Origin: an uncultured Pelagibacteraceae bacterium | Lineage (GTDB): Bacteria; Pseudomonadota; Alphaproteobacteria; Pelagibacterales; Pelagibacteraceae | Reading direction: 5' to 3' | Length of the DNA stretch: 64,000 bases | Assembly: GCA_902582345.1 (NCBI GenBank) | Contig: CACHRU010000004.1 | Location: forward strand, 527-64,526 | Shown here: piece by piece, positions 43,887-46,130 of the stretch | Layout of the letters: every line of letters begins with the position of its first letter | Numbering within the stretch: the stretch's first letter is position 1 | Notes under the pieces: model-generated | Seen by the model: only the letters and a program-made list of their open reading frames with translations | Told to the model about the DNA's origin: nothing | The model's database searches: none | Position numbers and translations under genes: made by a program

Positions 43887-44066
43887 ATACAATGACTTAC
43901 GATATATAATTAAAGTAAAATATTAGAATATAAGTAAGTAATACTTACTTTAATTTAATAATATTAAGAAAAAACATTGATATTATTGACTTATTTATAG
44001 AATATTTTGCAAAAAAAAATAAAATTAAGTAAAATTCATCAAATCAAAGCTTAAATATACCCCTAA

Positions 44067-44273
44067 AACCAAAGATTTTCAGGTTGTCTAGAATTGGCTA
44101 ATGGTGCGAATTCTAGAGCAATGCATAAAGAGAATATAGCGTTTAAAGGGCCATAGATAGCATTTTTTTTGCGATTTGATATTGTATGGTACAACTGAAC
44201 CGCGAGTAAGCAAAAAAAGCAACCAAAGATTGAGAATTAAGCTAAAACGCCCGTTAAACAACAATTCTAGAGC
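44067..44273. repeat. two copies of a degenerate 53-bp module, 154 bp apart, with nested inverted repeats
   Basis: AACCAAAGATT at 44067/44221, CTARAA at 44088/44242, AATTCTAGAGC at 44109/44263 (all offset 154). Confidence 0.65.
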
Positions 44274-44542
44274 GTTATACCCTCCTTTTTTAGCAGTTTT
44301 CTCTTGGTTTCAATACCACCTTTACCTGAATATCCTCCTAGTGAACCGTCTGACTTAATCACCCTATGACAAGGTATTTTGGGAGCATAAGGGTTTTTAC
44401 CTACTGCATTGCCCACAGCTCGAGCTGAATAGGGGCTTTTAATGGCTATAGCTACCTCTTTATAGGTTTTGACCTTACCTTTTGGTATTTTAAGCAAATA
44501 CTTCCAAACTTTTATCTGAAAATCAGTGCCTTTCAGCTTCAT
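44267..44542 (-). CDS. MGMT family methylated-DNA--protein-cysteine methyltransferase (C-terminal domain only)
   Basis: GTDFQIKVW, RAVG, IPCHRV active site. Confidence 0.88.
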   Translation of the reverse strand: MKLKGTDFQIKVWKYLLKIPKGKVKTYKEVAIAIKSPYSARAVGNAVGKNPYAPKIPCHRVIKSDGSLGGYSGKGGIETKRKLLKKEGITL

Positions 44543-44924
44543 TTTGATATTTTGAACTTGTTTTGCTAGAGTGGTGGGGACCTACAAGCATTATAGTCCA
44601 CGCAGGCTTATTATCCTTCAGTTTAAGGCTATGTTTATCTGTGTTTTTTCTAAATCCAATGTATCCAGGACCTCTCCAAAAAGTACCTTTATTAGTAGTT
44701 TCCCAATATCCACCTTTTAAAATAATTGTTATATAAGACCAGTAATGATCGTGTAAATCTCCTCGATCTTCTTTAAGTATCTTATGCACTAAAATATTGA
44801 ATGGAAACCATTTAGGCCTTTTTCTAAATAAAACATAATACCTAATCATAAATGGCTCTGCTTTATCGTAATCTGGCCAACTTGGCCCTCTATCTAAAAT
44901 AACTCTTTTCCTGTTCTCAAACAT
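44523..44924 (-). CDS. cupin-like hypothetical protein
   Basis: LHDH.W..ITIILKGGYWE ... H.L.L ... WT pattern typical of a His-ligated cupin fold. Confidence 0.65.
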   Translation of the reverse strand: MFENRKRVILDRGPSWPDYDKAEPFMIRYYVLFRKRPKWFPFNILVHKILKEDRGDLHDHYWSYITIILKGGYWETTNKGTFWRGPGYIGFRKNTDKHSLKLKDNKPAWTIMLVGPHHSSKTSSKYQNEAERH

Positions 44925-45092: not shown

Positions 45093-45138
45093 TAAATTAT
45101 TTTATCTTATTTGCTTGACTTCTAAAATGAGTTATTAT

Positions 45139-45173
45139 ATTACTAACGATAATTAATTGTTATCAATAGTAAT
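45139..45173. promoter_or_regulatory. lox/dif-like recombinase site (14-bp arms, 7-bp spacer)
   Basis: ATTACTAACGATAA-ttaattg-TTATCAATAGTAAT; arms 12/14 complementary; ends 3 bp before recombinase ATG. Confidence 0.7.
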
Positions 45174-45176
45174 GAT

Positions 45177-46130
45177 ATGAATGAACTTACAACTGATATA
45201 AAAGCTCTACATGAGGAAACATTAAGTAATCTTAAAACCTCTAAAGCAAACAATACTCTTAGAGCTTATAGATCAGATTTTAAGGATTTTGGTGGCTTTT
45301 GCGCTAAACATGGTTTTAAGTCCATGCCAACAGATCCAAAAGTTGTGTCTTTATACCTTACCTATTTATCTAAATCATCAAAAATTAGCACTTTGAGACG
45401 TAGATTGGTGTCTATAGGCGTTATTCATAAACTAAAAGGTCATTATCTAGATACAAAACATCCGATAATAATTGAAAATTTAATGGGAATTAAAAGAACA
45501 AAAGGTAGTAAACAAATAGGAAAAAAACCATTATTAATCAATCATTTAAAAGAAATAATTAATGTAATAAATCAACAAGATATTGATGAAATAGTAAAAT
45601 TAAGAAATAAGACATTAATATTAATTGGTTTTGGAGGAGGGTTTAGACGTTCAGAATTAATATCTATTGATTATGACGATGTTGAGTTTGTTGATGAGGG
45701 GGTTAAAATAATTCTTAAGAAATCTAAAACAGATCAATTTGGAGAAGGTATGATTAAAGGACTTCCCTACTTTTCAAAAGAAATTTATTGTCCGGTCGTA
45801 AATCTTATGAATTGGTTAAAAATATCAAAAATTAAAAATGGACCAATATTTAGAAGATTTGCAAAAGGATCCACTTTAACAAAAAACAGACTAACAGATC
45901 AATCAGTAGTCCTTATTATCAAAAATTGTTTAAAATTAGCCGGTATAGAAAATAATAATTTTTCTGGGCATAGTTTAAGATCTGGATTTGCTACTGTAGC
46001 TGCAGAAGCAGGTGCAGATGAGAGAAGTATTATGGCTATGACAGGGCATAAAACTACACAAATGGTTAGACGCTATATAAAAGAAGCAAATATATTTAAA
46101 AATAATGCTTTAAATAAAATAAAAATCTAA
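45177..46130 (+). CDS. Cre-like tyrosine recombinase/integrase
   Basis: NTLRAYRSD N-domain; catalytic R (FRRSEL), K (KSKTDQ), HxxR (GHSLRSG), H (TGH), Y (RRYI) all intact. Confidence 0.92.
   Translation: MNELTTDIKALHEETLSNLKTSKANNTLRAYRSDFKDFGGFCAKHGFKSMPTDPKVVSLYLTYLSKSSKISTLRRRLVSIGVIHKLKGHYLDTKHPIIIENLMGIKRTKGSKQIGKKPLLINHLKEIINVINQQDIDEIVKLRNKTLILIGFGGGFRRSELISIDYDDVEFVDEGVKIILKKSKTDQFGEGMIKGLPYFSKEIYCPVVNLMNWLKISKIKNGPIFRRFAKGSTLTKNRLTDQSVVLIIKNCLKLAGIENNNFSGHSLRSGFATVAAEAGADERSIMAMTGHKTTQMVRRYIKEANIFKNNALNKIKI

What the first reader, a model, noticed from the sequence alone, without database searches (positions are those of the whole stretch)
45115..46130. Cre-like recombinase plus lox-like site at a gene-orientation convergence: candidate non-XerCD chromosome dimer resolution system
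Seen: an intact tyrosine recombinase with Cre-like features (KTDQ.G.G, CPV, SGHSLR.G), preceded by ATTACTAACGATAA-ttaattg-TTATCAATAGTAAT ending 3 bp before its ATG and just downstream of a TTGACT -35-like hexamer (45115). There is no second copy of the site and no phage, plasmid or att-repeat context. By my count, genes up to 46130 are 42 plus / 11 minus and genes after it are 3 plus / 15 minus, so orientation converges here. Established: single-recombinase systems such as XerS/difSL have the dif site next to the gene at the terminus, and Cre-family enzymes use palindromic sites near their own gene to resolve dimers. Inference: a domesticated Cre/lox-type pair serving as the chromosomal dimer resolvase and autoregulating via its site; it is also a possible new genome-engineering recombinase.
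Basis: partly seen in the sequence, partly recalled or inferred. Interest (0 to 1): 0.8.

Follow-up and report, generated by a model that had tools for sequence, protein, structure and literature searches.

The report
SAR11 Cre-like chromosome dimer resolution module
SAR11 ocean bacteria, once reported to lack the usual XerC/XerD-dif system, carry one Cre-like recombinase gene directly behind its own 35-bp palindromic site exactly where replication ends; the pair very probably unlinks fused sister chromosomes, and SAR11 phages copy the site.

Summary
ORF 45177-46130 is an intact tyrosine recombinase (R157, K184, H265, R268, H291, Y300). Its fold and profile are closest to Cre. The 14-7-14 palindrome at 45139-45173 ends 3 bp before the ATG.

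The palindrome alone is not beyond chance in this AT-rich window. Its weight comes from comparison:
- It precedes every ortholog examined.
- Its 17-bp core occurs exactly once in 298 of 401 Pelagibacteraceae genomes. The reversed control never occurs.
- Its arms co-vary with two recombinase types.

The gene is the only conserved tyrosine recombinase of the family. XerC/XerD were not found there but are present in the sister family. In the closed Pelagibacter sp. RS39 genome the site lies about 0.6 kb from the global cumulative GC-skew maximum, 48% of the chromosome from the minimum. Gene orientation converges on it. Four draft contigs, including this window's, show the same pattern. FtsK with a gamma domain is present.

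Integrase-less pelagiphage DNA carries the same arms, mostly with different spacers. Full-length homologs sit on 2114 plasmid records, beside stability genes in the three inspected.

Recombination itself, FtsK dependence and autoregulation are inferred, not shown. Earlier agents of this scan reached the same reading on other SAR11 genomes. No paper describing it was found.

The parts
45115..45120 (+). -35-like hexamer TTGACT of the recombinase promoter
   Evidence: Seen. It is conserved as TTGACA/TTGACT at the same distance upstream of the site in the orthologs. Promoter function is inferred; the consensus scan did not call this pair.
45138..45143 (+). -10-like hexamer TATTAC, 17 bp after the -35; it overlaps the outer left arm
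   Evidence: Seen. Type-B orthologs have TATTAT at the same place. A recombinase bound to the site would cover it. Autoregulation is inferred only.
45139..45152 (+). left arm of the recombination site, ATTACTA-AC-GATAA
   Evidence: Present in 80/80 further species loci. Variation is concentrated in the 2-nt linker between the outer and inner blocks. The same arm occurs on 36 viral contigs and 2 cultured pelagiphages.
45153..45159 (+). asymmetric 7-bp central (crossover) region TTAATTG
   Evidence: It is TTAATTG or TTAATGG in nearly all hosts. It is the only block that varies freely among the phage copies. That marks it as the spacer, and its asymmetry gives the site a direction.
45160..45173 (+). 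right arm TTATC-AA-TAGTAAT
   Evidence: Inverted copy of the left arm, 12/14 here. Conserved.
45177..46130 (+). Cre-like tyrosine recombinase, 317 aa
   Evidence: Pfam PF00589 and PF02899. Catalytic R157, K184, H265, R268, H291 and Y300 are conserved across 68 homologs and align with Cre R173, K201, H289, R292, W315 and Y324. The AlphaFold2 model has pLDDT 94, and its best PDB matches are all Cre/Tre at TM 0.80. It is the only PF00589 match in this genome.

Best explanation
The gene and its upstream 35-bp site form a self-contained, single-recombinase chromosome dimer resolution module of Pelagibacteraceae (SAR11). It replaces XerC/XerD-dif. When sister chromosomes are fused by an odd number of crossovers, the dimer carries two directly repeated copies of the site at the two termini. 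Recombinase protomers bind the 14-bp arms of both copies, synapse them and exchange strands across the asymmetric 7-bp centre, as Cre does at loxP. That returns two monomers. FtsK, which is present with its gamma domain, probably brings the two sites together at the septum. The promoter's -10 lies inside the left arm, so bound recombinase probably also represses its own gene. An insertion at the site would cut the gene off from its promoter. The enzyme belongs to a large, mostly plasmid-borne Cre-like family. Integrase-less SAR11 phages carry the same arms and so probably borrow the host enzyme.

Shown: anatomy, conservation, terminus position, lack of detectable XerCD, Cre-like fold, phage and plasmid relatives.
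Inferred: catalysis at this site, dimer resolution, FtsK involvement, autoregulation.
For: 1. Terminus. In the closed 1,200,090-bp genome of Ca. Pelagibacter sp. RS39 (G080; identified) the site is at 674,662-674,696. The cumulative GC-skew maximum is at 675,249 (detrended 673,576) and the minimum at 97,882, so the site lies 48% of the chromosome from the minimum. ORF orientation is 68+/22- in the 100 kb to the left and 20+/75- to the right. The skew peak falls in the bin holding or adjoining the site on G021:C1 (472 kb), G051:C1, G059:C2 and this genome's C4.
2. Sole recombinase. It is the one PF00589 hit in this genome. There is one hit in most of 61 same-genus genomes and most of 87 family genomes at least 97% complete. 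The extra hits are sporadic ORFs, mostly of phage-integrase size (about 340-560 aa), with a few shorter fragments, and none scores above 94 bits. XerC/XerD of the sister family score 133-156 bits. The sister-family proteins are best matched by the XerC and XerD models (314 and 316 bits, just under those equivalog cut-offs), and the XerD-like one passes the tyrosine-recombinase subfamily cut-off (330 against 279).
3. Vertical and near-universal. An ortholog, single-copy in nearly all, is present in 166/180 family genomes at least 85% complete.
4. Site conservation. It lies upstream of 17/17 and 80/80 orthologs. The 17-bp core occurs exactly once in 298/401 genomes and the reversed control never. 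Two recombinase types carry two matching arm types.
5. The site is a target in its own right. 36 viral contigs and the cultured phages HTVC100P and HTVC035P carry both arms, with neither the host recombinase nor the host flank genes on them; the four records scanned for any tyrosine recombinase have none.
6. Cre-likeness. Cre is the best PDB hit to the family profile, over the full length (E 2e-12). The Foldseek top 30 are all Cre/Tre at TM 0.80, against 0.61 for XerH.
7. Precedent. Cre-loxP placed at dif resolves E. coli chromosome dimers and needs FtsK translocation (PMC2680272). XerS/difSL has the same site-before-gene module (PMC1914069). FtsK with a gamma domain is present here.
Against: - No experiment or direct trace of recombination was found. 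There were no duplicated sites or integrated elements in 401 genomes, and the one double hit was overlapping contig ends.
- No polar KOPS-like word emerged in the closed genome. GGGNAGGG is 10 against 2 but far too rare to guide FtsK.
- In two closed genomes the gene carries one frameshift ahead of the catalytic residues (Y300 in both; also H265 and R268 in G155) while the site is intact. This may be sequencing error, or it may show the gene is dispensable.
- The module borders a hypervariable glycosyltransferase island, so an island-related role is not fully excluded.
- The palindrome is not beyond chance within the window alone, and the promoter was not called by the scan.
- A 7-bp centre is unusual for Cre-type (8) and Xer-type (6) sites.
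Confidence: 0.8

Rival explanations
1. The recombinase is the resident integrase of the neighbouring variable glycosyltransferase island. It would capture or swap sugar-coat gene cassettes at its site, integron-like, and it sits at the terminus only because variable islands gather there.
For: The right flank is variable: GT2 is present in 39/97 loci and the methyltransferase in 3/97, while the left flank (ogt 95/97) is fixed. A 133-aa ORF between ogt and the site is present in only 13/97 loci. An earlier agent of this scan described the locus as a slot of swappable glycan genes.
Against: The variable genes lie behind the gene's 3' end, not next to the site. No second site or half-site above chance bounds the island. 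The 17-bp core is single-copy in 298 of the 299 family genomes that have it; the one double hit was overlapping contig ends. The gene is vertically conserved across the family rather than moving with island content. The site tracks the skew peak to within about 1 kb in a closed genome.
Confidence: 0.07
2. The palindrome is only an operator for autoregulation of a recombinase (or DNA-binding protein) whose real target or role lies elsewhere. One example would be action on phage DNA.
For: The site overlaps the likely -10 and start region and ends 3 bp before the ATG. Phage genomes carry many copies of the arms, so phage DNA is a real substrate candidate.
Against: The arm-spacer-arm layout has an asymmetric centre that varies freely only in phage copies. 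That is the anatomy of a crossover site, not of an operator. No other site exists in the host genome. The exact terminus position is unexplained by regulation alone. All six catalytic residues are conserved.
Confidence: 0.06
3. It is a decaying remnant of a plasmid or phage that integrated in the SAR11 ancestor, kept by chance and without present function.
For: Homologs are abundant on plasmids. Two closed genomes show a frameshifted copy.
Against: The reading frame is intact, with 62-91% identity across genera, in 166/180 genomes of a heavily streamlined lineage. The non-coding site is nearly invariant while its flanks diverge.
Confidence: 0.03

Closest known systems
Cre/loxP of phage P1, including engineered dif::loxP plus Cre in E. 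coli (PMC2680272)
   Same: One recombinase. The two-domain fold matches at TM 0.80 over the full length, and Cre is the best PDB profile hit. The motif around the second catalytic Arg, SGHS-x-R, is the same. The site has two about 14-bp inverted arms around a short asymmetric spacer, 35 bp against 34 bp. The site lies next to the gene. Cre's natural role is to keep a replicon monomeric, and Cre-loxP at dif can resolve chromosome dimers with help from FtsK translocation.
   Different: Only about 18% sequence identity. His replaces Cre's Trp315. The spacer is 7 bp rather than 8. The module is chromosomal, vertically inherited and fixed at the terminus of a free-living bacterium. The site overlaps the gene's own promoter.
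XerS/difSL of streptococci and lactococci (PMC1914069)
   Same: A single-recombinase module with the site immediately upstream of the gene, at the terminus. It replaces XerCD in a whole family. The authors propose that the layout protects against insertions at the site.
   Different: Not homologous at family level: the XerS model scores 40 bits against a cut-off of 267. difSL is 31 bp with unequal arms, whereas this site has near-symmetric 14-bp arms.
XerL/dif of Legionellales (PMC9765430)
   Same: A single-recombinase system that homology searches overlooked, in a group listed as lacking Xer/dif by the same 2009 survey. It has long, nearly perfect inverted arms and about 30 bp in all, and a mobile element mimics the site.
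   Different: XerL's catalytic Tyr is at position 387, so the protein is clearly longer. Its gene lies more than 400 kb from dif or on a plasmid. Sequence relationship to XerL was not tested here because no reference sequence was available.
XerH/difH of Helicobacter and Campylobacter; XerA/dif of archaea
   Same: A single recombinase acting at a palindromic terminus site.
   Different: Weaker structural match (XerH TM 0.61/0.55; XerA about 0.5) and only partial sequence matches.

Membership tests
Cre-type tyrosine recombinase / lox-type site | Two-domain Cre fold (helical N-terminal domain plus catalytic domain) clamping DNA | tested here: met
   AlphaFold2 model with pLDDT 94.4. The Foldseek top 30 PDB hits are all Cre/Tre, with TM 0.76-0.83 over 300-335 columns. 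The profile matches Cre residues 41-328 at E 2e-12.
Cre-type tyrosine recombinase / lox-type site | Catalytic set R-K-H-R-(W/H)-Y | tested here: met
   R157, K184, H265, R268 and Y300 are invariant in 68 homologs and H291 is conserved in more than 90%. They align with the Cre catalytic residues. His stands where Cre has Trp315.
Cre-type tyrosine recombinase / lox-type site | Simple site: two about 13-bp inverted arms and an asymmetric 8-bp spacer, with no arm-type accessory sites | tested here: inconclusive
   The layout is 14-7-14, so the spacer is 7 bp rather than 8. No further repeats were seen nearby in the host. Cleavage positions are unknown.
Cre-type tyrosine recombinase / lox-type site | Recombination of two sites by the recombinase alone | not testable with these tools
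   Needs an excision or in vitro assay.
Chromosome dimer resolution (Xer/dif-type) system, functional class | Single-copy, non-coding, AT-rich palindromic site at the replication terminus (skew switch) | tested here: met
   and for four more contigs.
Chromosome dimer resolution (Xer/dif-type) system, functional class | Dedicated recombinase conserved across the lineage, with no other candidate system | tested here: met
   XerC/XerD were not found in the genomes searched but are present in the sister family.
Chromosome dimer resolution (Xer/dif-type) system, functional class | FtsK translocase with gamma domain, and polar guiding motifs converging on the site | tested here: inconclusive
   FtsK with a gamma domain is present. 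No convincing polar word was found.
Chromosome dimer resolution (Xer/dif-type) system, functional class | Loss causes dimer-dependent, RecA-dependent segregation defects | not testable with these tools
   Genetic test needed.
XerC/XerD (TIGR02224/TIGR02225) | Score above the equivalog cut-off | tested here: not met
   XerD 79 bits against 329.6; XerC 65.7 against 335.
XerS (NF003462) | Score above the equivalog cut-off | tested here: not met
   39.9 bits against 267.

The most novel reading that the evidence does not exclude
SAR11 runs its chromosome segregation on a plasmid-derived Cre/lox-type pair, and its integrase-less, supposedly strictly lytic phages parasitise that host enzyme. They carry the host arms but mostly private 7-bp spacers, natural heterospecific lox-like sites. 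That would let the host recombinase circularise or resolve phage genomes without integrating them into the chromosome. Many carry two adjacent sites, one for each of the two host recombinase/arm types.
Probability: 0.4. Interest if true: 0.85.

Novelty: new variant of a known kind. Interest (0 to 1): 0.75.

Why it matters
SAR11 is the most abundant group of ocean bacteria, and the standard survey (PMC2731167) lists it as lacking any dif/Xer system, with streamlining given as the reason. This module would show that the function was kept but handed to a different, Cre-like enzyme. It would add a further natural class of single-recombinase dimer resolution beside XerS, XerH, XerA and XerL, and would be the first natural counterpart of the engineered dif::loxP experiment. 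It gives an exact terminus marker for SAR11 genomes and metagenome contigs. It suggests a new way in which integrase-less pelagiphages use their host. It also offers at least two co-varying recombinase/site pairs, plus a natural set of alternative spacers, as candidate orthogonal genome-engineering tools.

Tried and rejected
- KOPS-type analysis of the closed genome gave no convincing polar 7- or 8-mer.
- Exact searches of viral contigs for the whole 35-bp site, for the spacer plus right arm, and for the type-B site found nothing. Only patterns allowing a free spacer or a variant last base found phage copies.
- The one genome with two core copies (G318) proved to be overlapping contig ends at 99% identity, not an integrated element.
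- A canonical-dif pattern search was at control level in number. The sister family shows one recurrent dif-like word in three genomes, which I did not place against skew. The closed SAR11 genome shows none.
- Rfam and tRNA scans show no RNA gene at the locus.
- An island-integrase reading was considered and rejected for lack of any second site.
- I did not build a tree with Cre/Xer references. At about 18% identity it would not be reliable, and I relied on profile and fold comparison instead.
- I did not compare with XerL because no reference sequence was available.

Tallies include the unpublished genomes G136 and G293 as single rows.

Full report
WHAT IS THERE. The window is contig C4 (bases 527-64526) of a 978-kb, 27-contig, about 85%-complete, 29%-GC genome. 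Close relatives in public records are Pelagibacteraceae single-cell genomes and Ca. Pelagibacter. ORF 45177-46130 (+) encodes a 317-aa tyrosine recombinase: Pfam Phage_integrase at 5.6e-21 plus the SAM-like N-terminal domain. It scores far below every curated Xer model: XerD 79 bits against 330, XerC 66 against 335, XerS 40 against 267. Directly upstream are TTGACT (45115-45120) and a 14-7-14 palindrome at 45139-45173. Its parts are the left arm ATTACTAACGATAA, the centre TTAATTG and the right arm TTATCAATAGTAAT, ending 3 bp before the ATG. No tRNA or known RNA family lies at the locus.

IS THE PALINDROME MORE THAN CHANCE? Within the window alone it is not. Markov-1 simulations of this AT-rich sequence give on average 2.2 inverted repeats of this geometry with 2 mismatches or fewer, and the window has one. 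The weight comes from comparison:
- The same site precedes all 17 same-genus orthologs with readable upstream DNA, at protein identities down to 62%, and 80 of 80 further species representatives.
- The 17-bp core GATAATTAATKGTTATC occurs exactly once in 298 of 401 family genomes, and in 152 of 173 high-quality ones. The reversed control never occurs. Where both were listed, the core lies next to the gene.
- Variation is structured. The outer block ATTACTA and the inner block GATAA are fixed, a 2-nt linker varies, and the centre is TTAATTG or TTAATGG.
- A second recombinase type is about 304-310 aa, has a 12-residue deletion and is 62-66% identical. It always carries different, perfectly symmetric arms (TTTCCGATAA / TTATCGGAAA) around the same inner block and centre.
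Arms that change together with the protein are what a binding site is expected to do.

TERMINUS POSITION. G080 is the closed 1,200,090-bp genome of Ca. Pelagibacter sp. RS39. There the site is at 674,662-674,696 and the global cumulative GC-skew maximum at 675,249 (673,576 after detrending). The minimum is at 97,882, so the site lies 48% of the chromosome away from it. ORF orientation is 348+/168- on one replichore and 230+/346- on the other. Within 100 kb of the site it is 68+/22- on the left and 20+/75- on the right. The skew maximum falls in the bin holding or adjoining the site on a 472-kb contig (G021), on G051:C1, on G059:C2 and on this genome's C4. In the window itself the peak is at 44241 on a 43-47 kb plateau, and orientation is 39+/9- before and 3+/14- after the gene. 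The layout is always the same: the leading strand runs into the site, and the gene follows it.

NO OTHER CANDIDATE SYSTEM.
- This is the only PF00589 match in the genome.
- Most of 61 same-genus genomes, and most of 87 family genomes at least 97% complete, have exactly one match. The extras are sporadic ORFs, mostly of phage-integrase size (about 340-560 aa), with a few shorter fragments, and none scores above 94 bits.
- An ortholog, single-copy in nearly all, is found in 166 of 180 family genomes at least 85% complete, including dozens of closed 1.2-1.5-Mb genomes.
- The sister family of the same order instead has two recombinases scoring 133-156 bits to PF00589. They are best matched by the XerC and XerD models (314 and 316 bits, just under those cut-offs), and the XerD-like one passes the tyrosine-recombinase subfamily cut-off (330 against 279). 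That family also has a recurrent canonical-dif-like word in three genomes.
- FtsK with its gamma domain is present in this genome.
Carnoy and Roten (PMC2731167) reported that P. ubique has no dif/Xer system. I found no paper on SAR11 dimer resolution. One 2026 preprint simply calls the recombinases of Arctic Pelagibacterales XerC and XerD, from automatic annotation. Public records name this protein 'site-specific integrase' or 'XerD'.

WHAT KIND OF ENZYME.
- A profile of the orthologs hits Cre best among solved structures, over both domains (E 2e-12, Cre residues 41-328). XerD matches only in the catalytic domain.
- The AlphaFold2 model (pLDDT 94) finds Cre/Tre as its top 30 PDB matches at TM about 0.80. 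XerH reaches 0.61 and XerA about 0.5.
- R157, K184, H265, R268, H291 and Y300 align with the Cre catalytic residues, with His where Cre has Trp315.
- The wider family is large: 3766 clusters at E below 1e-30.
- Full-length homologs at 35-43% identity sit on 2114 PLSDB plasmids. In the three inspected they lie beside toxin-antitoxin and ParA stability genes. That fits a plasmid multimer-resolution ancestry. The direction of transfer is an inference.

PHAGES CARRY THE SITE. I followed a lead from earlier agents of this scan.
- Three viral contigs carry a 34/35 copy of this window's own site variant. One of them encodes an endolysin, a small terminase and a replication initiator.
- A pattern that leaves the centre free finds 36 viral contigs with both arms intact. 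None encodes the host recombinase or the host flank genes. The four phage records scanned for any tyrosine recombinase, three of these contigs and the complete HTVC100P genome, have none.
- The centres differ: CTTATGA in 12, the host's TTAATTG in only 3, and 13 other variants.
- The cultured pelagiphages HTVC100P and HTVC035P carry such sites near the terminase end of their genomes. HTVC100P has no annotated integrase and no PF00589 match. The paper that reports these isolates (PMC8477408) calls the int-less subgroup I of HTVC010P-type phages strictly lytic.
- At least 15 of the 38 phage sites, and more by eye, are followed within a few bases by a second palindrome with the type-B arms.
So the arms are kept wherever the host enzyme is to be used, and the 7 bp between them is the freely variable crossover region. 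By analogy with heterospecific lox spacers (my own knowledge, not tested here), most phage sites could recombine with each other but not with the chromosome.

MECHANISM.
Shown: a unique, directional, arm-spacer-arm site at the terminus; one conserved, catalytically complete Cre-like enzyme; no detectable XerCD; FtsK present.
Inferred: on a dimer the two direct copies are synapsed and recombined to give monomers. Cre-loxP does this when placed at dif in E. coli, where FtsK translocation but not activation is needed (PMC2680272). The likely -10 (TATTAC here, TATTAT in type B, 17 bp after the conserved -35) lies inside the left arm, so occupancy should repress the gene. As proposed for difSL-xerS (PMC1914069), an insertion at the site would separate the gene from its promoter.

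AGAINST, AND RIVALS.
- No recombination product was seen. The only genome with two cores was an assembly overlap.
- No polar guiding word was found.
- Two closed genomes have a single frameshift in the gene with the site intact, which is either sequencing error or dispensability.
- The module borders a variable glycosyltransferase island. The left flank is fixed (ogt in 95/97 loci) and the right flank varies. However, that island lies behind the gene, and no second site bounds it.
I put the dimer-resolution reading at 0.8. The rivals are an island-cassette role at 0.07, operator-only at 0.06 and a relic at 0.03.

NOVELTY. Single-recombinase dimer resolution is a known kind (XerS, XerH, XerA, XerL). 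This is a new variant, with a Cre-type enzyme of plasmid kinship in the most abundant marine bacteria. The same module was already flagged and followed up on other SAR11 genomes by this scan, and I re-derived each claim here.

Noticed in passing
L241-L273, L225-L227 (viral contigs); L228:34318-34380 (HTVC100P); L240:1501-1560 (HTVC035P): Phage copies of the site keep both 14-bp arms but carry 15 different 6-7-bp centres, most often CTTATGA. Only 3 of 36 contigs have the host centre. Many are followed within 2-6 bp by a second palindrome with the arms of the other (type-B) host recombinase.
   Followed up: partly
loci L012-L019 against L002-L010; genera g1, g6, g9: Two recombinase/site types occur side by side within the same genera. 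Type A is about 317-319 aa with ATTACTA..GATAA arms. Type B is about 304-310 aa with TTTCCGATAA arms. The whole module seems to be exchanged between lineages or kept as an old polymorphism.
   Followed up: partly
L274 (G155:C1:594800-596800) and L275 (G125:C1:570600-572600): In two closed Pelagibacter genomes the recombinase has one frameshift, near residue 200-214 in G155 and near residue 270 in G125, while the upstream site is intact. This is either sequencing error or real loss.
   Followed up: partly
window 46127-~56000, minus strand: Directly behind the recombinase lies a run of glycosyltransferase and methyltransferase genes (GT2, methyltransferase, a 707-aa double GT1). Its content varies between species: GT2 is present in 39/97 loci and the methyltransferase in 3/97. 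It is a flexible cell-surface island sitting at the replication terminus.
   Followed up: partly
window 44523-44924, minus strand: A 133-aa ORF without a Pfam match lies between ogt and the site. It is present in only 13 of 97 orthologous loci, so it is a small strain-variable insertion on the side of the site away from the gene.
   Followed up: no
window 43887-44273: The window's cumulative GC-skew maximum (44241) falls inside the long non-coding stretch with a duplicated 53-bp module, which another first-stage note flagged. A link to replication termination was not examined.
   Followed up: no
G028:C21:78284-78305, G027:C2:75861-75882, G025:C2:154721-154742: The sister family that keeps XerC/XerD shows a recurrent canonical-dif-like word, ATAA-TATATA-TTATG followed by an A-rich tail (TAAAAT in two genomes, ACAAAT in the third), in three genomes. 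It was not checked against skew.
   Followed up: no
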